From a virus: a stretch of DNA of 50,485 nucleotides. The stretch is taken from the IMG/VR virus record IMGVR_UViG_3300023284_000253, positions 1-50,485 of that record; one strand, given 5' to 3'. The translations under genes and the position numbers were made by a program. Position 1 is the first letter of the stretch. Each line of letters opens with the position of its first letter. The notes under the pieces are model-generated. The model saw nothing but the letters and a program-made list of their open reading frames with translations. It had not been told where the DNA came from and ran no database searches. Positions 1 to 50,485 of the stretch are shown in pieces.

Positions 1-144
1 CACAAACAAATACGATTTACCCCCACATATAATTGATATGTTAAATCTGTCTGAGCGTCCAGAAGAGGGGGTGATTCGTATAACGTCATTGATCGATAGC
101 CCTTTGATCCGACGGCTGATGATTGACAAGTGGGACCAGATCAC
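1..144. repeat. Terminal direct repeat, left copy
   Basis: Bases 1-144 (cacaaacaaatacgattta...gggaccagatcac) recur exactly at 50342-50485; unit length 50341 bp. Confidence 0.9.
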
Positions 145-937
145 GGAGGATTATTCTGACCTATTGCCCGCAGCGGCAGGAACTATCTTTCATGCCTATG
201 CGGAATCAATAGATACACATGAGTTAATGGCCGAGCTAAAGAATATAGTATCTGGAGATCTGAGTAAATCCAGCAGAGAGCTTTTATCAAATCTTCAGCG
301 GGTGTTAAGTGACCATTCGACAGTTATACGGGAACGTCGTTTGTCTGTGGAAATAGATGGCTGGACCGTAACTGGGCAAACAGACCATTATGAACCGAAG
401 ACCGGAGTCATTCGGGATACAAAGTTCACCAAGGTGGGATATCTTAGCTTCAACTATGAGAAACTGACAGCTCAGATGAACTGCTATGCTTATCTGATAG
501 AAACACACGGAGGAAAGGTAACAGAGTTGCACGGGGATCTGTGGTACAAGAATTGGGACTGGAAAATACCTTTGTTTCAGCCGGATCTGGATTATCCCCC
601 TATCTCGTATCAGCCTGTCAAGGTTCCTCTCTGGACAATGGCACAACGAAAACAGTATATCAAGGATAGGCTTCACTATCACACCATGGCAGACAGAGAT
701 ATGTGTTCAGCAGATGAGAGATGGGAAACCCCCTCGACCTTCTCAGTGATGAAGCCTGGGGCATCAAGATCTTTGAGAAACCTAAATACCAGGGTAGAGG
801 CAGAAGCTTGGATCATTGGGAAGAATAAGAAGGGTGTTGAAGTAGTTGAGAGACGTGGAGGGTCTCTACGTTGTTTACATTTCTGTGCCCTGGGAAAATC
901 AGGTATATGCCCCTTTTATAAGGAGAATGTTAAATGA
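2..937 (+). CDS. PD-(D/E)XK nuclease, RecB/Cas4-like; 5' end lies in the terminal repeat
   Basis: Track ORF 38..937. The frame is open to base 2 and, via the repeat, back to GTG 50334 behind GGAGA. Motifs GQTDHY, IRDTKF (DxK), QMNCYAYL (QxxxY); C-terminal Cys cluster CLHFCALGKSGIC. Confidence 0.75.
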   Translation, partial: TNKYDLPPHIIDMLNLSERPEEGVIRITSLIDSPLIRRLMIDKWDQITEDYSDLLPAAAGTIFHAYAESIDTHELMAELKNIVSGDLSKSSRELLSNLQRVLSDHSTVIRERRLSVEIDGWTVTGQTDHYEPKTGVIRDTKFTKVGYLSFNYEKLTAQMNCYAYLIETHGGKVTELHGDLWYKNWDWKIPLFQPDLDYPPISYQPVKVPLWTMAQRKQYIKDRLHYHTMADRDMCSADERWETPSTFSVMKPGASRSLRNLNTRVEAEAWIIGKNKKGVEVVERRGGSLRCLHFCALGKSGICPFYKENVK

Positions 938-7641: not shown

Positions 7642-7851
7642 ATGACGAAAGTTAAACAACTTGAAAAACTATTTGGTGGTAAATGGAGATACTTAGGACC
7701 AGCTTACTGGGAATGCGATGACGGGAAACATCATGTATGGGCTTTTGGCACTATCAATTGTGACAGGGATGTCTTTCCAGACCTTCTTTATAGCACCGAC
7801 TACCAACTTTTCCGTGATAACAAATTTATGCAGCATGTTTACCTATCCTGA
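7642..7851 (+). CDS. hypothetical protein (69 aa), plus-strand island between minus-strand genes
   Basis: Internal ATG of track ORF 7618..7851 with GGAG 5 nt upstream. Composition is protein-like; no competing minus ORF. 13-nt convergent overlap with the 1052-aa gene. Confidence 0.45.
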   Translation: MTKVKQLEKLFGGKWRYLGPAYWECDDGKHHVWAFGTINCDRDVFPDLLYSTDYQLFRDNKFMQHVYLS

Positions 7852-10800
7852 AACAACAATCTGAGGGCTCTTTTCTTGGCATCCCTGACTCTCTCAGCCA
7901 CCCGTGTTTTCCTGCCAGTTAACCTCTTATTCAGCTCCGCAACCAACAACAGACGAAAAGCTCCAAAGTCCTTGTCATTGAGACGAGTTTTCTGTTGAGT
8001 GCGAGACACAGACAATGCAATCCCGTTCTCAGCCAGCAATGCTTGATTTGCTTGACTAAGCTTACCCGTTACAAATGCTCCATCCTTCCGTTCCCTCTCC
8101 TGCTTCTTGGCAATGAAGTCACTGACCTTCTTAGGTTCCTTCTTTACCTCCTCATCAGCAGCGGCAAATGCCTCTTTGTTCTTCCTTGACAATGACTTCC
8201 TCTGTCTAGGAGTTAGGTCAATGAAATCTTTTCCATGGGCTTCTTGTGCAACCCTGTTCTTTAAGGCTGTTCTCTTTTTGAAAGGACTATCCTTGAAAGT
8301 CTGACCACCTACCGAAAGCATAGAGGCAACACCGGAGGCAGCAATACCGGGTGCTCTTTTGATAACTGCCTGGTACATCTCTTCCAGCGTACCATCTTCC
8401 TCCATCGTGTCATACATTGTCTGCAAAATTTCAGGTGTAATCTTGTCCAAGATAGCTTGATGAGCCTTGATATCATCCCCTATCCAGTCCTTACCTGTTC
8501 GCAACTCATTAAACAATCCAATTAACGGAGCTTCTCTAGAAGTAATATAACGCCCTATTATTTCTCCGGGATTTTTAACGGTTTGACCACCAACCCTGGT
8601 TACCGGAACTTCAGTTCGCTTCTCTCTAAGATTCGAGTAAGCTGCCACAGCCAAACGAGCCATTAGCGTATAAAATGAGGCATCGCCGCCGTGTATATCT
8701 TTGCGATCATTCTCAATTCGCACCTTACCAAAATCAGAAGACAATGGATTAGCTGAATCCCCATCCTCACCAGTGAAATGTTTCCGGACCAGATCACCCA
8801 TGGACCCAATGGCAACCATCTTAGCTACATTGGAGGCCACCATCTCAGCAGCAAAACGACGAGATCCGGGCTTATTCAAAACATTAGCAATCTGTGCTGG
8901 CCGAGAAAAAGTAACCCCCGGAGAAAAAAGCACATATCCAGCCGCCTTCTGAATATTCTGACCTGCTGGGTCTTTAAATCTAAACATCCTCAATGTATTG
9001 TTTATGGCATCCGCACGATCCACTTTAGCCTTTACTAACGCTTTTCCCGTGAAGCCCTGTTTTTGGAGATCCCTCATGGACAGTTCCCAAAGGTCCATCA
9101 TAGTACTATTCATGGACGCAGCAAATGACCTTTCAGACGCCAGAGCCAATTTTCCAATCCCTCTAACCGGCTTCAACAACCTGCGTTTGACAGGTCCAGC
9201 ATCTTGTCCCAATTCAGCCAGCCAGTTATTTATACCCGCACGTCTCCACTCAGCCCGGTCCTTGGAGAACCTACCAGCACTGAGAAAATTAAGACCGCTC
9301 TCTTTTCCATCTGAAAATAGCTCACGTCCCTCTGTCCTTTTATTCAACCTTTCAGCAAAACCTTTACTAGCATAGGCCCCAACACCTCTTCCTACATTTT
9401 TAATAAACACTCCGGGACGGCGGCCTGAAATAGGGGCTGCCTGTCGTCCAATTTGAACATCAAACGTCACAAACAGCTTAGCAGCATCGGCAAGAAAATG
9501 TAGACCCTTGCCTAACGTAAAGGGGGTAGAAGCCACCTTCTTATGAAGCTGAGATGCAACATCTGACCCCAGCACCTTTTCAATATGTGCCCACCCAGAA
9601 TCAGTAGGATTTACCCCTTTTCGCAGAGAACGAAATGCGTCCTGAGCATCACTAGCTTGAAACACTTTTATGTGTTTACCCTTAACCGGGTAGGTCTTCT
9701 TGATGGCACGCTCAATAGTAGCCATCTCCGCCTTGTTCAATGGAAGAGGTTCAAAAGTAACCACTTCCCCAGGCCCTTTAAACCCCTTCTTTACAGCTCC
9801 TAGACCGCCAGCCTCAACAGCAGCAATCCCTCCCGCAGCTTGACGCTTCCTCAGAGCCTTCCTAGAGGCCTCAGCAGCCTCCTGAGAAACCAACTTCACA
9901 CCTTTGGACCAATCCACATACTTCTGTGCCAACTGCGTCAGAGGGGCGTCAGAGCCCTCAGGAAGAACACCTGAGCGTTGAGGTGTAATCTGGACCCTCT
10001 GTCTCCCAGCCTCAGCAGCAATGTCCACACGTCTTTGTTCCCTAAGCTTTCTAACTCCTTTTCCAGCGGCCCCCGCAGCACGTAATCCAACAGGTAACAG
10101 GGCACTAGTTAAAATGTCTTCAGCGCTCCCACCCTCAGCAGCAGTCAATCCTCCAAGAGATACACCTTCAGCAACAGGCTTAGCAACAACACCAGCCGCC
10201 CCTTTCAGAGGGCTCACCAGCTTACCAGCCCCAGCAAGAGCACCAAAAGCCACCAGCCCTCTACCGGGGGCACCTCCTACAGCTTGATTCTGGGCCTCCC
10301 ACAGCACAGCTACAGGTGTAGAAGGGAATGCCTTCCTTAACAGGGCTAACTGAGCAACAAACCCAGACACACCAGCAATGATGTCAGCAGCACGGTCAGT
10401 AATTCCTTCGGCTTCCTGCATCTGAAAAGAGAAATTGGCTTGCTCCGCTTGAACCTGCTTAGCTTGCACTAACAGACTCTCGTGTCTTTGCTTTCGAGTT
10501 ATGGAGGACTCAGCAAGAACAGCAGTCTCTCCCGCATCCACACGCTCCTTGATTGCTTGTAGACGGGGGTCCTCAGCCACCCTCTTAGGTGACAGAAAAG
10601 CTCTCCGTTCTCTGGGAGAGATAGGCCCTTGTTCTGCACGGGAGATAAAATCCTCCACACTCAGATCCAAGAAGGCCCGCATTACTCCTACTTTACGGCC
10701 CCCGGTGAATCGATCAATCTGTGCTTTTACAGGGCCAGCAACCACCGTGTTAAACAACCCCTTAAGCGTTCTACCAACAAACCCCGATCTTTGTGGTTTC

Positions 10801-10997
10801 TCCGGTATTCCAAATGATGCACGAGAAGGAGACGACGCTAACCTATCCTGTTCAAACGAAGCCTCTTCCCCAAGGCTGGCAAACGGATCACGCCTAAGCG
10901 GCCCTGAGAGTCCCAGCTTAGCTTCAGACTCCTCATAAGTCAACAAACCCCCTCCCTGCTCACTTAACGTCTCATCATAGGTCTTAAGTGCCATCAA
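7839..10997 (-). CDS. giant virion protein (1052 aa), internal core/ejection or tape-measure-like
   Basis: Largest ORF, at the distal end of the late arm. Ala/Gly-rich hydrophobic segments (GALAGAGKLVSPLKGAAGVVAKPVAEG). No catalytic motif recognised. Confidence 0.6.
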   Translation of the reverse strand: MMALKTYDETLSEQGGGLLTYEESEAKLGLSGPLRRDPFASLGEEASFEQDRLASSPSRASFGIPEKPQRSGFVGRTLKGLFNTVVAGPVKAQIDRFTGGRKVGVMRAFLDLSVEDFISRAEQGPISPRERRAFLSPKRVAEDPRLQAIKERVDAGETAVLAESSITRKQRHESLLVQAKQVQAEQANFSFQMQEAEGITDRAADIIAGVSGFVAQLALLRKAFPSTPVAVLWEAQNQAVGGAPGRGLVAFGALAGAGKLVSPLKGAAGVVAKPVAEGVSLGGLTAAEGGSAEDILTSALLPVGLRAAGAAGKGVRKLREQRRVDIAAEAGRQRVQITPQRSGVLPEGSDAPLTQLAQKYVDWSKGVKLVSQEAAEASRKALRKRQAAGGIAAVEAGGLGAVKKGFKGPGEVVTFEPLPLNKAEMATIERAIKKTYPVKGKHIKVFQASDAQDAFRSLRKGVNPTDSGWAHIEKVLGSDVASQLHKKVASTPFTLGKGLHFLADAAKLFVTFDVQIGRQAAPISGRRPGVFIKNVGRGVGAYASKGFAERLNKRTEGRELFSDGKESGLNFLSAGRFSKDRAEWRRAGINNWLAELGQDAGPVKRRLLKPVRGIGKLALASERSFAASMNSTMMDLWELSMRDLQKQGFTGKALVKAKVDRADAINNTLRMFRFKDPAGQNIQKAAGYVLFSPGVTFSRPAQIANVLNKPGSRRFAAEMVASNVAKMVAIGSMGDLVRKHFTGEDGDSANPLSSDFGKVRIENDRKDIHGGDASFYTLMARLAVAAYSNLREKRTEVPVTRVGGQTVKNPGEIIGRYITSREAPLIGLFNELRTGKDWIGDDIKAHQAILDKITPEILQTMYDTMEEDGTLEEMYQAVIKRAPGIAASGVASMLSVGGQTFKDSPFKKRTALKNRVAQEAHGKDFIDLTPRQRKSLSRKNKEAFAAADEEVKKEPKKVSDFIAKKQERERKDGAFVTGKLSQANQALLAENGIALSVSRTQQKTRLNDKDFGAFRLLLVAELNKRLTGRKTRVAERVRDAKKRALRLLFQDR

Positions 10998-31805: not shown

Positions 31806-33815
31806 CTACACCCATTGCTTCTCATCTCTAGTTCGTCGGTAGTCAATCATCTCAGCGTCCCTCATCCTCGCAGCAAAGCTTCCCGGATGGATAATCCTAT
31901 ACTCCTCTTCACTTCCCTTGGCCTGCTGAGAGGAAGCCATTTCAGCTAAACCCATAGCAATAACACGATCCCCGTGAGATGCTTTTGCACCACTAGATTC
32001 AGTTATCATAGATACAGGGCCAACATCAATTCGTTTATCAGCAAACGTATACCCTTCCATCTCATTCATAGTCTGATTATCATACAATATCAGCCTGGAA
32101 AACTGAGGATTGTCTCGTAACGATTCACGCAAAGCAGCATCCAGTTTGTTCAACATGGAAATCTTCGTGCCGCTCTGACCCGTTGTATTTTTCCACCCGT
32201 AGGCATTAGCCCATTTTCTAGTACTGTTAGGGGCACCTTCTCGTTTGTACAAAGAATAATAACCAAGCTCATCTAAACGCTCGTAAAACTCTGGAGCCCC
32301 ATTCTCTTCCCAATTAAGTAATGGAGGAACAGAACCACCAATCCAATCACAGAAAGCAACAGTCAACTCTGCAAAACTGGGTCGGGGATGATACGCGGTA
32401 ACTAAAAGCCCAACCAATTCATCAGTGTTTACATCTTTAACAGCACACACAGAATTAGAAGCCCCAGTGCCTCTGGACAAATCAGCTCCCACAGCGTAGC
32501 TATGACCCTGTAAAGGACGACCATATTTTAACTCTCCCCACCAGGATACCAAACTCTTAGATCCCCCCAGAACAAACTCAACGTCGCTGATGGACTTATC
32601 CGACACTACATAGATTATATCCCCGCGATAGCGTGGCTCCTCAACCCTCTCACGCAGCTTGGACATCAAACTAAAATCAAAGAACGTCTCGGTAGAGCCA
32701 GAGTCAAGGCATAGAATGTTCTGTGCCTTGCCGCGCTCAGTGCGTCCTGGTCGTTTCTCGTCCGAGTCTAACCATACCGTCCTGTCTATTCCAAAATTGG
32801 ACACCCCCGCGTCCGCAATAAATGAATACCCACCGCCTAATGTCGAAGTATCAACAACTTCCCCCTCCTCTACATCATCATATACGCCCGGATACGCTTT
32901 TTGAAAATAAGCCAAGTCCTTCATTATCACTTGTCCATCTTTGGGGCTTGAATATCGGCCATAGTTCTGATTCGGGCAGTCGAAGAAACTGAGTTTGATC
33001 GTATTATCTGGATGGGCGGCCATCGCCCTATCATAAGGGTGAGCCCCGCCCCACGGACCTTTAGTCGAATTAAAAATGCAACACTCCGATGTATCGGCTA
33101 AGTTTTCTAGCAGCCACGAGGCCATGGGAGGTTCTATCTGTGCGGCCTCATCAACCATAACCGATGTAGACCGAAATGACTTTCCAAAACCAATATTCGT
33201 CGTGTCACCGCGAACCGCAGAATTGTTGTCAAGACTTTGAATGAATAGCTTCTTTTTGTAAGTCTTGGGCTGCAAATACTCCGGTAGAGTGTTAATCATG
33301 TAGAGGAACTTATAAAACAGTGACTCCTCTGACCCAACTAAAACACCGTCAACAAGTTCACAGCCATCATCAACCAGTTGTTCCTTTCGAGATCCCAATA
33401 AAAACTTGCTGTTGGGACTCACAAGAAAATACAAAAGGTACATTCCTAAGATGATATACGTTGCCCCTTGCTTTCTACTCTTTAGAAAAAACAAATCTGT
33501 TGGCTCCCCATTCATACCTTTGTCAATCGCAACCTTGATTGCCCTGACCGCCTTCTCTTGGTGCGGCCATAAAATGAATGGTATATCTCTGTATCCTGGT
33601 CTGGATTGAGAATTAAAAGTCCACAGTGCCGTGTTAAACCACAAAACAGGATCAACAAAACACAGTGCAAGATATCTTTCCTTGCCCTTATTGCTCGACA
33701 GGAAGCTGTGAAGCTCCTTCCGCCTCATCAAGTTCTTGGCCCTGTTCCCCCGAAACCAATTGGCCAGCGCTTCTGGGCTCTCCGTTATTTTCCGAAAGTA
33801 CCGAGTCGATAGCAT
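31806..33815 (-). CDS. terL: terminase large subunit
   Basis: 669 aa. Walker A-like LKSRKQGATY, Walker B SVMVDEAAQIE, C-terminal nuclease-type GADLSRGTGASNS. The start is uncertain (128-nt overlap with terS; ATG 33731 is an alternative). Confidence 0.8.
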   Translation of the reverse strand: MLSTRYFRKITESPEALANWFRGNRAKNLMRRKELHSFLSSNKGKERYLALCFVDPVLWFNTALWTFNSQSRPGYRDIPFILWPHQEKAVRAIKVAIDKGMNGEPTDLFFLKSRKQGATYIILGMYLLYFLVSPNSKFLLGSRKEQLVDDGCELVDGVLVGSEESLFYKFLYMINTLPEYLQPKTYKKKLFIQSLDNNSAVRGDTTNIGFGKSFRSTSVMVDEAAQIEPPMASWLLENLADTSECCIFNSTKGPWGGAHPYDRAMAAHPDNTIKLSFFDCPNQNYGRYSSPKDGQVIMKDLAYFQKAYPGVYDDVEEGEVVDTSTLGGGYSFIADAGVSNFGIDRTVWLDSDEKRPGRTERGKAQNILCLDSGSTETFFDFSLMSKLRERVEEPRYRGDIIYVVSDKSISDVEFVLGGSKSLVSWWGELKYGRPLQGHSYAVGADLSRGTGASNSVCAVKDVNTDELVGLLVTAYHPRPSFAELTVAFCDWIGGSVPPLLNWEENGAPEFYERLDELGYYSLYKREGAPNSTRKWANAYGWKNTTGQSGTKISMLNKLDAALRESLRDNPQFSRLILYDNQTMNEMEGYTFADKRIDVGPVSMITESSGAKASHGDRVIAMGLAEMASSQQAKGSEEEYRIIHPGSFAARMRDAEMIDYRRTRDEKQWV

Positions 33816-34419
33816 CTACTGTCTCCATGTCAATAATCTCAGCCTCAATAACCTTAGCATATCCACCAGCCAACCGGTCTATTTGCTCCGCAACAGAGGC
33901 AGCATCAAGTTTGTGAGTGTGTGTCGTCTCAACCTTCTTTTCAATATACTGCTTAGAGACCCAGTCGTCGCCTCCCTCCTGCCTGTCAAGACACGACACT
34001 AGAAACATTAGCAATCTATCGTTCGATGGAATAGTTTTATGTGTCTCTTCAACAGTCACTTCCGTCCCTGGAATAAGCTCCAACGAACCATCTTCCAAAA
34101 CTTTCTGCTTAGTAACTATTTTTTTATCAACAGTTACATAACCAGCAGCCGCTCTAATTCCCTTACCAATCAGGTATGCCTTAGTTAATTTTTTACCACT
34201 GTTTGTCGCTCTCTTAAACTCGGGGTACTCACGCTTCCATTTCTGGATATTATCTCGCGTCGTCCCAAAATAAAATGCAAGGTCCTTGAGCGTGGCACCA
34301 GCCGCCACTAATTTCTCAGCAACCCCAACAAGATCGGGACTATACTTTGTAGCATGCTGAGGATTGATTCGTGGTGATCCTTCAGCCTCCCAGTCCTCTT
34401 TAGTCTCCCATCTTACCAT
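33688..34419 (-). CDS. terS: terminase small subunit candidate
   Basis: Track ORF 33688..34491. ATG 34419 behind GGGAGA is preferred because the first 24 codons are read through repeat D. HTH-like LKDLAFYFGTTRDNIQKWKREYPEF; sits upstream of terL. Confidence 0.55.
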   Translation of the reverse strand: MVRWETKEDWEAEGSPRINPQHATKYSPDLVGVAEKLVAAGATLKDLAFYFGTTRDNIQKWKREYPEFKRATNSGKKLTKAYLIGKGIRAAAGYVTVDKKIVTKQKVLEDGSLELIPGTEVTVEETHKTIPSNDRLLMFLVSCLDRQEGGDDWVSKQYIEKKVETTHTHKLDAASVAEQIDRLAGGYAKVIEAEIIDMETVDAIDSVLSENNGEPRSAGQLVSGEQGQELDEAEGASQLPVEQ

Positions 34420-34430
34420 TAAGTCTCCCA

Positions 34431-34542
34431 GCTTCCTCTCACAGCTCCTCACAGCCTGCTGGAGCGACGATCTCCTGAAATGGCTACCCAACTACCCTTA
34501 AAACACTTCGGTCCTCAGAACGGCTCACAGCGGCTCTGAGAG
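34431..34542 (+). repeat. Intergenic structured repeat, copy D (partial)
   Basis: CCTCTCACAG..., then 34448-34474 identical to 5188-5214, then a CGGTCCTCAGAACGG block. Lacks the central TAGCCAT/GAGAT block. Confidence 0.8.
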
Positions 34543-34671
34543 TAAATTCGTGGTTTTATCTGCCGATGCCGTTATAACCGTCATTATCGTTACATACTAC
34601 CTATTAATAAGGTCCACAGTATACTATGGCCCTGTATATCTTAATTCTTTTAACTATGGCACAGCAAAAAC

Positions 34672-34719
34672 AGTGGAAGCAGTTATATTTGCTGACAGAT
34701 ATGTTTCAGCTTCCACTGA
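34672..34719. repeat. Perfect 10-bp inverted repeat (hairpin/cruciform)
   Basis: CAGTGGAAGC (34672-34681) and GCTTCCACTG (34710-34719) with a 28-nt spacer that contains an inner ATAT...ATAT pair. Confidence 0.85.
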
Positions 34720-34907
34720 CTGACTCAATTGTACCAGATTACTATTCTACTGCGCACCATGTACTATAGTCCCCCTATATATATAAGCGGGGTAATTGGG
34801 CTATTTTTAGAACAAATTTTGGAATTTTTGAAAGTTTTTTCATAATCCTTATTTTTGGACTAAAAACAAAGATAAATTTTTATGTGGTTATAATCTAAAA
34901 CAATGTT

Positions 34908-34936
34908 TGCATGTGAGGTTCTCTTGTGTTAGACTT
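34908..34936 (+). promoter_or_regulatory. Candidate sigma70-type early promoter (extended -10)
   Basis: TTGCAT, 17 nt, TAGACT preceded by TGT. The 11-mer TGTGTTAGACT recurs at 43139-43149. Sits in the AT-rich region ~140 nt upstream of the first plus-arm gene. Confidence 0.4.
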
Positions 34937-35076
34937 TATATAATAAGATTTACCATTGATTTTAGTCCAAAACTGGTGATGTTGTATTTATTTTTACAAT
35001 TTAATGATTTTTCGTTTGGCATTTTGTGAATTATCCCGTTTAATATAATAGAGGCGTTATTTTTAAGGAGACAGAA

Positions 35077-35595
35077 ATGTTGACAGAAGCAGAGTTTAAA
35101 ATAGAAATGAATGAAAAATTCCATTTATTGTACGAAGAGCATAACAATAGGTTGAGAAATTGGCTCAAAAGTAAACTAAATGATGATAATGATGTTGATG
35201 ATGTAATGCAAGATGCTTGGCTCAAGATCTGGGAAAGAATTATTAAACTCCCTTTTGGTGAAATGAATACGGCATACCTGTATAGCTGTTTGAAAAGTTG
35301 CCTATATGATTTTTTCCGAAGGCGAGGTGATGGTAAAGACCCCAGTGACCAAAAGTACAAAAAAGGCTTAGGGAAAAGATACAAGCTTCAAATGACAGGC
35401 AACAAGGACTTTCTTCGGAATCTCAAGGGTTACTGGGCCGAGCGTGTCATTCATGGAGACACGTCCCTTTTGAAAACCTGCCGAGAGTTGTTCGGCGAAG
35501 CTGATTCTGCTGGGGTCATGGACCCGACTGGCAGTGAGAAAGATGATTGGGCACTTGCAATCTTAGAAGCAGATGATAAACCTGGAGAGTTGTGA
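35077..35595 (+). CDS. sigma-70 family (ECF-like region 2) protein
   Basis: FHLLYEEHNNRLRNWLKSKL...DVDDVMQDAWLKIWERI...AYLYSCLKSCLYDFFRRR fits the sigma70_r2 pattern. The C-terminal region-4 match is weak. AAGGAGACAGAA precedes the ATG. Confidence 0.65.
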   Translation: MLTEAEFKIEMNEKFHLLYEEHNNRLRNWLKSKLNDDNDVDDVMQDAWLKIWERIIKLPFGEMNTAYLYSCLKSCLYDFFRRRGDGKDPSDQKYKKGLGKRYKLQMTGNKDFLRNLKGYWAERVIHGDTSLLKTCRELFGEADSAGVMDPTGSEKDDWALAILEADDKPGEL

Positions 35596-35900
35596 TGGGT
35601 ATGTACAGAACGTATGATGAACTGTATACTGACACGGTTCACATTGTCAGTAAGTATTTACAGTCGGTGTTAAGTGATCCTGTGTATCGTAAAGAAGTCA
35701 TTGAAGACGTTTACATGAATGTTATTTACCACATGAACCAGCATCCTGATGAAGCAGTGGGCACAGGAATGGTATTACACTTTGTTGATGAGTGTCTTTC
35801 TCAATGGTATTATGATCATGATGAGGAGTTTCAGTCTGGGTATGATCAGTTGATCGAAGATTTCGAGTGGACTAACCCTTATTCAACAGGGGATGCTTAA
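35592..35900 (+). CDS. second sigma-region-2-like small protein (102 aa)
   Basis: YDELYTDTVHIVSKYLQSVLSDPVYRKEVIEDVYMNVIYH resembles region 2 only. Overlaps both neighbours. Assignment is tentative. Confidence 0.4.
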   Translation: MMGMYRTYDELYTDTVHIVSKYLQSVLSDPVYRKEVIEDVYMNVIYHMNQHPDEAVGTGMVLHFVDECLSQWYYDHDEEFQSGYDQLIEDFEWTNPYSTGDA

Positions 35901-37713
35901 GATGATCATCACGACCTATGAGGGGTTCCGGGATCTGACAGATGGGTGGGACTTTTCTCAGTTGGCATTTGACACTGAGACTACCGATCTAGACTGGTGG
36001 GAGCTGAAAATAGAGGGATTCTCTATTAGCAATGGGAAACAGTCGTGTTATGTAAACCTTAGTTCAGATGAGGAGTTGGCCGAATGGATCTTGTCCTGGT
36101 TTGTTCATCGACTCTCTGAAACTAATTTAATACTAATTGGTCATAATTTAGTATTTGACTTGAAGGTTTTGGCTAAATATGTTGGAATAGAGACCATTAA
36201 CCACCTTATGATGCGGACTAAGTTGGCTGATACCTGCACTGCCTCCTACCTGATTGATGAGAGGTGTAGCCACAAACTCAAGGGTCCAGAGGGATCGGGA
36301 CACTGCTGCGAGCGGTTTTTAGGTAGACAACCGGTTAGTTATGATGAGGCAATTAAGTATGGTGTTCTAAGCCCCGAGTTTGCTGAATATGCTGAGGCTG
36401 ATTCTGTGAACACGTTTGATCTCTGGCAGTCCGAGAAGCCTATCTTGGAACGTGACGGGTTGATGAATGTGTTTGAGGTTGAAATGGACTTCCTTCCTGT
36501 GCAGATCGAGATGGAACTGACAGGCATGGTGATTGACACAGATCGATTGATGGTCATGGAGACCGAGTTAGATCTGATCAAGTGCTCTTTGGAAGCTGAT
36601 CTGATTGAAGTTTTAGACCCTCCCGATCAGGGATACATGTTTGGTATTCCCATCGAGGCGACGCATATCAACTCTCCTACCAAGCTGCTCCCGGTGCTAC
36701 AAGAGAAGTACGGTCTTAAAGGGAAAAGTACCGATAAAAAAGCTCTAACCTCAATGTTGGGCAAGCACCCCATATTTGAGCTTATCTTGAAATATCGGGC
36801 CGTGAGTAAGCTTCTGTCTACCTATATTGTGCCCACTTGGGACAGGATTAGAGACGACAAGAGGATTCATCCTAGTTTCCGTTCTGCCCGAAGTGGGAGA
36901 CTTCAAGCACGGCAGCCCAATCTTATGAATCTAGCTAAAGAGAACAAGTGGGTTCCACAAGTAAATATTCGTAATATGTTTGTGGCTGAAGAAGAAAACT
37001 CTTTTTTAAGACCCGATTATATGGGACAAGAACTGCGTATCCTTGCCTCCAATGCGAATGATGAACGTATGCTGAACGCTTTTGATAAAGGGTGGGATGT
37101 TCACATGTTTGTTGCCAATCGATCATTGGGGTTAGGGATTCCAGCGGAACATTTGTGTGAAACCCACCCTGAGTATCCTGATGTACGAGAGAAGCATGAC
37201 ACATCTAGAACTAAATATAAAGCGGTAGGATTTGGAATTGCCTATGGTAAAACATCACATGGGTTCGCTGCTGAGTGGGGGTGTTCCAATCAACAAGCCG
37301 TAGGAGTGATTCAAAGTTATTTTAGAATGTTTCCTGGGGTTGAAAAGCACATTAAACAAGTACACAATTTTATTATTCTAAACGGATATTCGGTTACGGT
37401 TTCTGGACGCAGGAGACGGTATGACAAACCTATACGGAAGGGGGACCTTAGATCAGGGTTTAATCATACCATACAGGGTGGTGCCTCCGACCAGATAAAA
37501 ATGGCGTGTTCTTTGATGTGGCGGTGGTTTCAAGAGTTTACCATCAAACCAAAGATTGTGTTGACAATCCATGATGAAGTGATCATTGAAGCACCTTCTG
37601 ATAAAATACACTTGATTAAGGATCGAGTTGAGAGTATAATGTGTGGGGCGATGAAACTTAGATGCCCTGTTAAGGTTGAGTCCAAGATTACCCACAGTTA
37701 CGGAGATGATTGA
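35893..37713 (+). CDS. family A DNA polymerase with 3'-5' exonuclease domain
   Basis: Exo I FDTETTDL, Exo II HNLVFDLKVL, Exo III YAEADS; Pol A DYMGQELRILA, Pol B RTKYKAVGFGIAYG, Pol C TIHDEVIIE. Confidence 0.92.
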   Translation: MLKMIITTYEGFRDLTDGWDFSQLAFDTETTDLDWWELKIEGFSISNGKQSCYVNLSSDEELAEWILSWFVHRLSETNLILIGHNLVFDLKVLAKYVGIETINHLMMRTKLADTCTASYLIDERCSHKLKGPEGSGHCCERFLGRQPVSYDEAIKYGVLSPEFAEYAEADSVNTFDLWQSEKPILERDGLMNVFEVEMDFLPVQIEMELTGMVIDTDRLMVMETELDLIKCSLEADLIEVLDPPDQGYMFGIPIEATHINSPTKLLPVLQEKYGLKGKSTDKKALTSMLGKHPIFELILKYRAVSKLLSTYIVPTWDRIRDDKRIHPSFRSARSGRLQARQPNLMNLAKENKWVPQVNIRNMFVAEEENSFLRPDYMGQELRILASNANDERMLNAFDKGWDVHMFVANRSLGLGIPAEHLCETHPEYPDVREKHDTSRTKYKAVGFGIAYGKTSHGFAAEWGCSNQQAVGVIQSYFRMFPGVEKHIKQVHNFIILNGYSVTVSGRRRRYDKPIRKGDLRSGFNHTIQGGASDQIKMACSLMWRWFQEFTIKPKIVLTIHDEVIIEAPSDKIHLIKDRVESIMCGAMKLRCPVKVESKITHSYGDD

Positions 37714-50333: not shown

Positions 50334-50485
50334 GTGAAATACACAAACAAATACGATTTACCCCCACATATAATTGATATGTTAAATCTGTCTGAGCGTC
50401 CAGAAGAGGGGGTGATTCGTATAACGTCATTGATCGATAGCCCTTTGATCCGACGGCTGATGATTGACAAGTGGGACCAGATCAC
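50334..50485 (+). CDS. 5' part of the PD-(D/E)XK nuclease gene (continues as 2..937 after circularisation)
   Basis: GTG 50334 lies 4 nt after GGAGA, in frame with ATG 50379 (equivalent to 38). VKYTNKYDLPPHIIDMLNLSERPEEG... Confidence 0.6.
   Translation, partial: MKYTNKYDLPPHIIDMLNLSERPEEGVIRITSLIDSPLIRRLMIDKWDQI
50342..50485. repeat. Terminal direct repeat, right copy
   Basis: Identical to bases 1-144. Confidence 0.9.

What the first reader, a model, noticed from the sequence alone, without database searches (positions are those of the whole stretch)
35077..35900. Two tandem sigma-region-2-like genes head the early arm; no phage RNA polymerase is present
The first plus-arm gene (172 aa) has a clear sigma70 region-2 pattern: DDVMQDAWLKIWERI...AYLY...DFFRRR. 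Its region 4 is at best weak.

The overlapping next gene (102 aa) again looks like region 2 alone: YDELY...VSKYL...EVIEDVYMNVIYH.

The genome has no RNA polymerase. Temporal control therefore probably works by redirecting the host core enzyme, as T4 gp55/gp33 or SPO1 gp28/gp33-34 do. A split or paired truncated sigma arrangement would be unusual. The conserved intergenic repeats are obvious candidate targets.
Basis: partly seen in the sequence, partly recalled or inferred. Interest (0 to 1): 0.62.

Follow-up and report, generated by a model that had tools for sequence, protein, structure and literature searches.

The report
Phage sigma lacking region 4, plus partner
The first early gene of this uncultivated 50-kb phage encodes a real sigma-factor region-2 domain with no region 4. 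The small, very acidic gene that overlaps it is only weakly like the same domain, so the pair is a plausible but unproven two-part device for redirecting the host RNA polymerase.

Summary
Gene 1 (35077-35595, 172 aa) carries a real Sigma70_r2 domain. Pfam gives E 2e-10 and 40.7 bits against a cut-off of 24, and an ECF alignment I built gives hhalign probability 96.7%. Its region 4 is undetectable, not merely weak. Residues 89-172 score nothing against ECF profiles, have no relative among 5.8 billion proteins, and no region-4 match exists in any of the six frames of the genome.

Gene 2 (35595-35900, 101 aa) has no homologue among 1.84 billion representatives. Its likeness to region 2 is marginal but recurs:
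- ECF profile, p about 0.007;
- an ungapped 70-residue alignment to gene 1, p = 0.005;
- 11 of the top 50 PDB fold matches of a mediocre model are ECF sigma-2 domains, none significant.

Its net charge is -16 and it lacks the basic DNA-contact residues, so it looks like a partner or decoy, not a second sigma.

No RNA polymerase is recognisable in the genome. Related phages carry a region-2-like gene or a stand-alone region-4-like HTH gene at the same locus. No target promoter was found.

This is a new variant of the known phage sigma / split-sigma theme (T4 gp55/gp33, SPO1 gp33/34), and its function is untested.

The parts
34420..35076 (.). Divergent control region between terS (minus arm) and the sigma gene (plus arm). 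The half next to the sigma gene is AT-rich.
   Evidence: Sequence read. The consensus sigma-70 promoter scan was not above shuffles, 7 sites against 4.4 +/- 2.3. The terS start is probably ATG 34419, by comparison with the L003 terS.
35065..35071 (+). Ribosome-binding site AAGGAGA of gene 1
   Evidence: Read directly from the sequence; it lies 5 nt upstream of ATG 35077.
35077..35595 (+). Gene 1: 172-aa protein with a region-2 domain and no region 4
   Evidence: ORF. Pfam Sigma70_r2 E 2e-10. phrog_1740 'RNA polymerase sigma factor' E 6e-6. The only cluster member among 5.8 billion proteins.
35116..35340 (+). Region-2 domain of gene 1 (residues about 14-88), with the motifs DDVMQDAWLKIWE, AYLY and DFFRRR
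   Evidence: Six-frame PF04542 match at 35128-35328, 42.3 bits. TIGR02937 positions 2-74 of 165 at 35116-35334. hhalign 96.7% to my ECF alignment. A poor AF2 model still gave ECF sigma chains as nearly all of its top 28 PDB matches, over 66-86 columns.
35341..35592 (+). Orphan C-terminal half of gene 1 (residues 89-172): a basic stretch (pI 9.9, residues 85-125) followed by an acidic tail (pI 4.1)
   Evidence: No score at all against the ECF HMM or by hhalign. A region-restricted search of 5.8 billion proteins found only the protein itself. No PF08281 or PF04545 match in any frame there.
35584..35589 (+). Ribosome-binding site GGAGAG of gene 2, inside the end of gene 1
   Evidence: Read directly from the sequence. 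The ATG at 35595 shares its A with the TGA stop of gene 1.
35595..35900 (+). Gene 2: 101-aa orphan, net charge -16, predicted four-helix protein with a marginal likeness to region 2
   Evidence: An exhaustive phmmer search of 1.84 billion representatives found only itself. AF2 pLDDT 62.5 with helices 7-25, 29-49, 57-74 and 77-93. Eleven of the top 50 Foldseek PDB matches are ECF sigma-2 chains, all with E above 0.7. A Smith-Waterman alignment to gene 1 gives p = 0.005. Charge.
35893..37713 (+). Family A DNA polymerase, third gene of the same tightly packed operon
   Evidence: PF01612 and PF00476 are recorded for it. Its start overlaps the stop of gene 2.

Best explanation
Gene 1 encodes a minimal sigma factor derived from the ECF type. 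It has kept region 2, the module that docks on the beta-prime clamp helices of core RNA polymerase and reads a -10-like element. It has replaced region 4 with an unrelated basic-then-acidic C-terminal half.

The gene is transcribed first, by the unmodified host holoenzyme, from the AT-rich zone at 34800-35076. Its product then redirects host core enzyme to phage middle or late promoters that need only a -10-type element, as T4 gp55 does.

Gene 2 is translationally coupled to gene 1. It is most likely a strongly diverged, hyper-acidic copy of the same region-2 fold that has lost its DNA-contact residues. It would act through protein-protein contacts, either as a co-factor of gene 1 (a gp33-like role) or as a competitor of host sigma for core enzyme. 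It would not be a second promoter-specificity factor.

Shown: the domain content, the absence of region 4 and of any RNA polymerase gene, the operon layout, and the orphan status of both proteins. Inferred: core binding, promoter recognition, timing, and every role assigned to gene 2.
For: Region 2 of gene 1:
- Pfam E 2e-10, above the gathering score.
- 40 ECF families in NCBIfam, all limited to the N-terminal half.
- Own ECF HMM 37.7 bits, 0 of 3000 shuffles; hhalign 96.7%.
- Fold matches are almost all ECF sigma-2.

No region 4:
-. TIGR02937 matches only positions 2-74, 29.4 bits against a cut-off of 42.9.

No phage RNA polymerase or other recognisable transcription factor:
-.

Operon coupling:
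- Overlapping stop and start codons, and ribosome-binding sites.

Gene 2's resemblance to region 2:
- NCBIfam SigK and PRK12541 at E 0.009 and 0.02, collinear.
- Own HMM p = 0.007.
- An ungapped 70-aa alignment to gene 1, p = 0.005.
- ECF sigma chains make up 11 of the top 50 PDB fold matches, and 3 named phage sigmas are among the top 13 in BFVD.

Gene 2 is unlikely to bind DNA:
- Residues 1-75 carry -8.1 net charge, against -2.2 to +7.9 in 34 real ECF region-2 segments.

The locus is a sigma-domain locus across the clade:
- L003 gene B is region-2-like, hhalign 62.6%, E 7e-5.
- Relatives L004, L010, L011 and L014 carry a stand-alone region-4-like HTH there, hhalign 91.6%, E 8e-7.

Precedent for a region-2-only factor working with a separate acidic helper:
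- PMC7892883.
Against: - There is no functional data of any kind.
- No conserved promoter motif was found upstream of the late or other operons.
- Gene 2's sigma signals are each at noise level. hhalign gives 1.1%, no better than control proteins. All Foldseek E-values exceed 0.7, on a model of pLDDT 62.5. The signals are also not independent of one another.
- Neither protein resembles gp55, gp33 or AsiA by sequence, and none of these appears among the fold matches.
- The AF2 model of gene 1 is too poor (pLDDT 43.6) to exclude a structurally cryptic region 4 in residues 89-172.
- Both proteins are singletons, so there is no conservation to argue from.
Confidence: 0.5

Rival explanations
1. This is an ordinary ECF sigma / anti-sigma operon. 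Gene 1 is a complete ECF sigma whose region 4 has diverged beyond sequence detection. Gene 2, immediately downstream and overlapping as anti-sigma genes usually are, is its soluble anti-sigma factor and sets the timing of the switch.
For: - The gene order and the stop/start overlap are the classic ECF arrangement (anti-sigma context reviewed in PMC7826278).
- At 172 aa, gene 1 is long enough for region 2 plus region 4.
- Gene 2 is about 100 aa, helical and acidic.
- The nearest IMG/VR relatives of the region-2 domain are full-length ECF sigmas. One of them (L221) is followed by an 86-aa acidic protein.
Against: - Residues 89-172 give no region-4 signal at all.
- That stretch ends in an acidic tail where a basic recognition helix should be.
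- Gene 2 has one cysteine and no HxxxCxxC motif.
- Gene 2 has no Pfam anti-sigma hit.
- Its weak fold matches are to sigma chains, not anti-sigma chains.
Confidence: 0.17
2. One or both proteins are region-2-only decoys. They occupy the beta-prime clamp helices of host core enzyme and displace host sigma, shutting off host transcription. They confer no promoter specificity, and phage genes rely on host sigma-dependent promoters throughout.
For: - Both proteins are first in the early operon.
- Region 2.2 is the main core-binding determinant, and the corresponding motif DDVMQDAWLKIW is well kept in gene 1.
- Gene 2 is too acidic for DNA contact.
- No phage-specific promoter motif was found.
Against: - Gene 1 also keeps the region 2.3/2.4-like segment (AYLY...DFFRRR). 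A pure decoy would not need it.
- Blocking core enzyme would also block the phage, which has no polymerase of its own.
Confidence: 0.13
3. Gene 2 is an unrelated orphan early protein. Its resemblance to region 2 comes from chance and from its being a small helical protein. Gene 1 acts alone, or with a host factor.
For: - hhalign probability is 1.1%, with a score no better than 24 control proteins of the same genome.
- There is no Pfam sigma hit.
- Unrelated families (AAC(6'), peptidase M14) score equally well.
- All fold matches are non-significant, and ATP-cone domains rank higher.
- It has no homologues at all.
Against: - Four partly independent tests all point to the same domain, in the same register, at p about 0.005-0.01.
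- The tandem genes at the same locus of relative L003 are also weakly alike, p = 0.015.
Confidence: 0.35

Closest known systems
T4 gp55 (late sigma) with its co-activator gp33
   Same: A phage without its own RNA polymerase uses a small factor of 172-185 aa that has only a region-2-type domain plus extra C-terminal elements. A separate acidic helical protein of about 100 aa accompanies it. In T4, gp55 binds the clamp helices and reads a -10-like element, while gp33 sits on the beta flap in place of region 4 (PMC7892883).
   Different: - There is no sequence similarity to gp55 or gp33, and neither appears among the fold matches.
- Gene 1 is clearly of ECF sequence type, whereas gp55 is too diverged for that.
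- The two genes here are adjacent and overlapping.
- No sliding clamp gene was recognised in this genome.
SPO1 gp33/gp34, B. subtilis SigO-RsoA and Tn916 Sig7-8 (two-subunit split sigma factors)
   Same: Two small adjacent genes of a mobile element or phage together supply sigma function (bioRxiv 10.64898/2026.10.01.756105; PMC7826278 cites the SigO-RsoA work).
   Different: In SigO-RsoA and Sig7-8, one subunit carries region 2 and the other region 4. Here no region 4 is detectable anywhere in the genome, and the second protein looks, if anything, like another region 2. The region-4-only proteins are in other members of the clade, not in this phage.
Group 4 (ECF) sigma factors, including phage-encoded ones
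   Same: The region-2 sequence is typical ECF. SigZ, FecI and Sig70_bacteroi1 are the best models. The nearest viral relatives, L220 and L221, are 30-33% identical over region 2.
   Different: It lacks region 4 and falls below the TIGR02937 cut-off (29.4 against 42.9 bits). Phage sigmas with only a detectable sigma-2 Pfam domain have been noted before, for example Gp01 of Bacillus phage vB_BceM-HSE3 (cited in PMC7826278).
T4 AsiA and soluble anti-sigma factors (as models for gene 2)
   Same: Small, acidic, all-helical early phage proteins, or sigma-adjacent proteins, that act on the transcription machinery by protein-protein contact.
   Different: There is no sequence match to any PDB chain at E up to 10, no zinc-binding anti-sigma motif, and no anti-sigma chain among the fold matches.

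Membership tests
Sigma-70 family, group 4 (ECF) | Region 2 domain (Pfam PF04542) above the gathering score | tested here: met
   Gene 1: 40.7 bits against 24, E 2e-10, residues 18-84. The six-frame search gives 42.3 bits.
Sigma-70 family, group 4 (ECF) | Region 4 domain (PF08281 or PF04545) in the same polypeptide | tested here: not met
   No match in gene 1 or anywhere in six frames of the genome at E up to 10. The C-terminal 84 residues give no score against my ECF HMM or by hhalign. A structurally cryptic region 4 is not excluded, because the AF2 model has pLDDT 43.6.
Sigma-70 family, group 4 (ECF) | Full-length score above the curated TIGR02937 / NCBIfam cut-offs | tested here: not met
   TIGR02937 gives 29.4-29.6 bits against a cut-off of 42.9, matching model positions 2-74 of 165 only. 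All equivalog models score far below their cut-offs.
Sigma region 2 fold (applied to gene 2) | Significant profile or fold match to region 2 | tested here: inconclusive
   - No Pfam hit.
- NCBIfam ECF hits at E 0.009 and 0.02.
- Own HMM p = 0.007, rank 48 of 4619.
- hhalign 1.1%.
- Alignment to gene 1, p = 0.005.
- Eleven of the top 50 Foldseek matches are ECF sigma-2, but with E above 0.7 on a model of pLDDT 62.5.
T4 gp55 / gp33 late-transcription pair | Sequence or fold homology to gp55 (gene 1) and gp33 (gene 2) | tested here: not met
   phmmer against all PDB chains, which include gp55 and gp33 complexes according to PMC7892883, gave only ECF sigmas for gene 1 and nothing for gene 2 at E up to 10. 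The PHROG scan gave no gp55 or gp33 family. Neither is in the Foldseek top 50.
T4 gp55 / gp33 late-transcription pair | Binding to the beta-prime clamp helices and the beta flap; -10-only late promoters; activation by a sliding clamp | not testable with these tools
   This needs biochemistry. No clamp gene was recognised, and no candidate promoter motif was found.
Two-subunit split sigma (SigO-RsoA, Tn916 Sig7-8) | One subunit with region 2 and a partner subunit with region 4 | tested here: not met
   Region 2 is present in gene 1. No region-4-like protein exists in this genome, and an hhalign screen of plus-arm proteins against the relatives' region-4-like family found none.
ECF anti-sigma factors (applied to gene 2) | Anti-sigma domain with an HxxxCxxC motif or a Pfam anti-sigma match | tested here: not met
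   It has a single cysteine and no such motif (sequence). There are no anti-sigma families in Pfam or NCBIfam at E up to 10.

The most novel reading that the evidence does not exclude
This phage lineage has taken an ECF sigma apart into single-domain proteins kept at one locus, at the head of the early operon. This phage has a region-2-only factor with a new C-terminal module, plus a hyper-acidic, DNA-blind duplicate of region 2. Sister phages have a stand-alone region-4 HTH instead. The two region-2 proteins would act together on host core enzyme as a new kind of two-subunit specificity device, one reading the -10 element and the other occupying a second sigma-binding surface or evicting host sigma. 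Such a device would need no region 4 and no -35 element.
Probability: 0.2. Interest if true: 0.7.

Novelty: new variant of a known kind. Interest (0 to 1): 0.45.

Why it matters
Phages that lack their own RNA polymerase must reprogram the host enzyme. Only a few ways of doing so are understood mechanistically: T4 gp55/gp33/gp45, SPO1 gp28 and gp33/34, and phiEco32-type ECF sigmas.

A clearly ECF-derived factor that has dropped region 4, paired with a possible degenerate region-2 copy, would be an evolutionary intermediate between ordinary ECF sigmas and the unrecognisably diverged gp55 type. It would show how -35-independent initiation can arise.

The locus also varies between relatives: region-2-like genes in one, stand-alone region-4-like genes in others. 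That gives a natural series for studying how sigma domains work when separated. Small orthogonal single-domain sigma modules also interest synthetic biology.

Against this, phage sigmas with only a detectable region 2 are already on record. Both proteins are singletons, and nothing functional is known.

Tried and rejected
1. Close relatives of either protein. None were found. tblastn and blastn against 50,697 phage records gave nothing. IMG/VR pattern scans gave nothing. The word-indexed search of 5.8 billion proteins found only the protein itself. The exhaustive phmmer search with gene 2 found only itself, plus one repetitive 763-aa protein at E 5e-4 that I take for chance.

2. Structure prediction. 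Only single-sequence models were possible. Gene 1 gave pLDDT 43.6, unusable for the C-terminal half. Gene 2 gave pLDDT 62.5.

3. The idea that the two ORFs are one frameshifted sigma with region 4 in gene 2. Rejected. Gene 2 aligns to region 2, not region 4, and no frame holds a region-4 match.

4. The idea that gene 1's C-terminal half shares a module with the C-terminal extension of the relatives' region-4-like proteins ('LRNxL' followed by an acidic tail). Rejected: hhalign E 0.04 and HMM p = 0.05.

5. Promoter discovery. The sigma-70 consensus scan was not above shuffles. K-mer enrichment over 22 intergenic gaps returned only ribosome-binding-site or start-codon words. The TAGTAT / TATA..GGGGG motifs are local to the terS upstream region and are not genome-wide.

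6. Pfam region 2 or region 4 in five related IMG/VR records: none at E up to 1.

7. The 268-274-aa first-gene family of another subclade (L007, L013, L216, L219) gave only a weak region-2-like signal, hhalign E 0.009 and probability 4.6%.

8. The 86-aa acidic gene after the L221 sigma, compared with gene 2: p = 0.01, not pursued.

Full report
**Setting.** The window is a complete 50,485-bp IMG/VR phage record with direct terminal repeats. It has two arms. A minus-strand structural arm runs from terS/terL at about 34.4 kb down to 7.8 kb. A plus-strand replication arm starts at 35,077 and wraps through the record end to about 7.6 kb. The finding concerns the first two genes of the plus arm, which sit across a roughly 585-657-nt divergent region from terS.

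**Observation.** Gene 1 (35077-35595, 172 aa) follows an AAGGAGA ribosome-binding site. Gene 2 is listed from GTG 35592. The in-frame ATG at 35595 shares its first base with the TGA stop of gene 1 and lies 5 nt after a GGAGAG site, so a 101-aa product is more likely. Its TAA stop overlaps the start of the family A DNA polymerase gene. The three genes therefore form one tightly coupled early operon.

**Gene 1 has a real region 2.**
- Pfam Sigma70_r2 scores 40.7 bits, E 2e-10, against a gathering score of 24, over residues 18-84.
- PHROGs gives 'RNA polymerase sigma factor' at E 6e-6.
- NCBIfam lists 40 ECF-type families (SigZ, FecI, Sig70_bacteroi1 and others), every one aligned only to about residues 11-99.
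- I built an ECF profile from 34 ECF sigma genes of five bacterial genomes. Against it, gene 1 scores 37.7 bits over model positions 18-100, with 0 of 3000 shuffles reaching that score. hhalign gives 96.7%.
- Even a poor single-sequence AF2 model (pLDDT 43.6) returned ECF sigma factors as nearly all of its top 28 PDB matches. These aligned over 66-86 columns, that is, region 2 only.

**Gene 1 has no detectable region 4.**
- Residues 89-172 obtain no score at all against the full ECF profile or by hhalign.
- Six-frame searches of the whole genome with PF08281 and PF04545 find nothing credible.
- TIGR02937 matches only positions 2-74 of 165 and stays under its cut-off, 29.4 against 42.9 bits.
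- The C-terminal half is a basic stretch (pI 9.9) followed by an acidic tail (pI 4.1). It has no relative among 5.8 billion proteins.
- The caveat is that the AF2 model is too poor there to exclude a structurally cryptic HTH.

**Gene 2 is an orphan.** An exhaustive phmmer search of 1.84 billion representative proteins finds only the protein itself. There is no PDB sequence match at E up to 10 and no Pfam sigma hit.

**Signals for a region-2 relationship in gene 2.**
- (a) Two NCBIfam ECF models hit at E 0.009 and 0.02, collinear with the N-terminus. Unrelated AAC(6') models score the same.
- (b) My ECF HMM gives 2.4 bits on model positions 22-68, with empirical p = 0.007 against shuffles and rank 48 of 4619 phage ORFs.
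- (c) An ungapped 70-residue Smith-Waterman alignment joins gene 1 residues 11-80 to gene 2 residues 3-72, with 10 of 2000 shuffles as good.
- (d) The AF2 model (pLDDT 62.5, pTM 0.51, four helices) has no significant Foldseek match. However, 11 of its top 50 PDB matches are ECF region-2 chains. The best is 9m9d_F, with probability 0.60, TM 0.55 and 2.8 A over 71 columns. Three named phage sigma factors are among the top 13 BFVD matches.

**Signals against.** hhalign gives only 1.1%, with a score no better than 24 control proteins from the same genome. ATP-cone domains rank above the sigmas in the fold search. The four positive signals are also correlated with one another. I put the chance that gene 2 has a region-2-type fold at about 55-60%.

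**Gene 2 is unlikely to be a sigma in the functional sense.** Its net charge is -16. Residues 1-75 carry -8.1, whereas 34 real ECF region-2 segments range from -2.2 to +7.9. The invariant Q and the K of region 2.2, and the basic end of region 2.4, are replaced.

**No RNA polymerase.** PF00940 is absent, although that search had no positive control among the 14 bacterial control genomes. The only ORF of sufficient size is 1051 aa. It lies at the far end of the structural arm, is rich in Ala, Gly, Lys and Arg, lacks a DxDxD motif, and has no Pfam, PHROG or PDB match. The plus arm contains recognisable genes for DNA polymerase, an exonuclease subunit, a primase, RecA by its sequence pattern, an RNA ligase, MazG, an exonuclease and a methyltransferase. 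It contains no other transcription factor and no sliding clamp.

**Relatives.** The DNA polymerase has relatives at 40-48% identity, and their contigs keep the terL-terS | early genes | polA layout. The slot before polA is variable, but it repeatedly holds sigma-domain-like genes.
- In L003 (a 50,192-nt Logan contig) there are two tandem genes of 127 and 128 aa. The second is region-2-like: hhalign 62.6%, E 7e-5; NCBIfam Sig70_bacteroi1 at E 0.0055; shuffle p = 0.003. The two are weakly alike (p = 0.015).
- In L004/L006, L010, L011 and L014 the first early gene is a 112-130-aa protein. A four-sequence alignment of it matches ECF region 4.1-4.2 (hhalign 91.6%, E 8e-7), so it is a stand-alone region-4-like HTH.
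- Another subclade (L007, L013, L216, L219) has a 268-274-aa first gene with only a faint region-2-like stretch (E 0.009).
- None of these relatives' proteins is detectably homologous to gene 1 or gene 2 by sequence.
- The nearest IMG/VR relatives of gene 1's region 2 (30-33% identity) are ordinary full-length ECF sigmas with a clear region 4.

**Mechanism.** The best-supported reading is that gene 1 is a minimal sigma of ECF origin. The host holoenzyme would express it first, and it would then direct core enzyme to phage promoters through a -10-type element alone. This is the logic of T4 gp55, whose region-2-homology domain binds the clamp helices and reads the late -10-like element while the acidic five-helix gp33 occupies the beta flap (PMC7892883). 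Two-subunit sigma systems are also known from SPO1 (gp33/34), B. subtilis (SigO-RsoA) and Tn916 (Sig7-8) (bioRxiv 10.64898/2026.10.01.756105).

Gene 2 is co-translated with gene 1. It is best seen as a protein-binding partner or competitor, possibly a degenerate duplicate of region 2. All functional steps are inference.

I could not identify target promoters. The consensus scan and the k-mer enrichment over 22 intergenic gaps gave nothing. The reiterated TAGTAT/ACTAG words and the TATA..GGGGG box upstream of terS are shared in kind with L003, but they are local features that could equally be pac or origin elements.

**Rivals.**
- A canonical sigma / anti-sigma pair with a cryptic region 4.
- Region-2-only decoys that evict host sigma.
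- Gene 2 as an unrelated orphan.

Their evidence and refutation tests are listed in the fields above.

**Novelty and score.** Phage sigma factors that diverge from the region-2-plus-region-4 plan are on record. These include proteins with only a detectable sigma-2 domain (PMC7826278, citing Bacillus phage vB_BceM-HSE3), and the split-sigma idea dates from T4 and SPO1. What is new here is threefold:
- an unmistakably ECF-type region 2 fused to an orphan C-terminal half;
- a possible hyper-acidic region-2 paralogue coupled to it;
- a clade in which the same locus holds either region-2-like or region-4-like single-domain genes.

I rate it a new variant of a known kind, with interest 0.45. The 'two tandem region-2 genes' claim is only suggestive, and the function is untested.

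Noticed in passing
L004:3311-3703, L010:2570-2944, L011:3133-3489, L014:2439-2792: In four related phages the first early gene encodes a 112-130-aa stand-alone region-4-like HTH. A four-sequence alignment matches ECF region 4.1-4.2 with hhalign probability 91.6%, E 8e-7. The proteins have a conserved C-terminal extension ending ...IVEKF or ...IREIF. Pfam alone does not see the domain.
   Followed up: partly
L003:3276-4029: A sister phage (a 50,192-nt Logan contig) has two tandem overlapping genes of 127 and 128 aa in the same slot. The second is region-2-like (hhalign 62.6%, E 7e-5), and the two are weakly similar to each other (p = 0.015).
   Followed up: partly
L007:1892-2716, L013:1898-2716, L216:2458-3264, L219:72-893: Another subclade starts its early arm with a conserved 268-274-aa protein of unknown family. 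Residues about 44-95 give a faint collinear match to ECF region 2 (hhalign E 0.009, probability 4.6%). It is followed by an N6/N4 methyltransferase and polA.
   Followed up: partly
window 34590-34800 (minus strand) and L003:2860-3100 (minus strand): Upstream of terS, both phages have reiterated TAGTAT/ATAGTA/ACTAG words and a TATA...GGGGG box between the late side and the AT-rich early promoter zone. The words are not enriched elsewhere in the genome. They could be pac, origin or regulator sites.
   Followed up: partly
window 33688-34491 (minus): The terS ORF as listed starts at TTG 34491. Comparison with the L003 terS (MARVANTEEYIEKGAYRINP...) suggests the real start is the ATG at 34419 (MVRWETKEDWEAEGSPRINP...). 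The first 24 codons of the listed ORF would then be intergenic repeat sequence.
   Followed up: partly
window 7839-10997 (minus): A 1051-aa protein rich in Ala, Gly, Lys and Arg lies at the distal end of the structural arm. It has no Pfam, PHROG or PDB sequence match and is the largest gene of the phage. It may be an internal or ejected virion protein.
   Followed up: partly
L221:2420-3489: In a 189-kb IMG/VR contig, a full-length ECF-type phage sigma (239 aa) is followed after 90 nt by an 86-aa strongly acidic helical protein. The layout recalls gene 1 / gene 2 here. Similarity to gene 2 is only p = 0.01.
   Followed up: partly
window 1-150 and 50334-50485: The record ends repeat its beginning. 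The peptide MLNLSERPEEGVIRITSLIDSPLIRRLMIDKWDQ is encoded at both ends, in line with IMG/VR's 'direct terminal repeats' call. The exonuclease gene at 38-937 therefore really starts at about 50334 (MKYTNKYDLPPHIID...).
   Followed up: no
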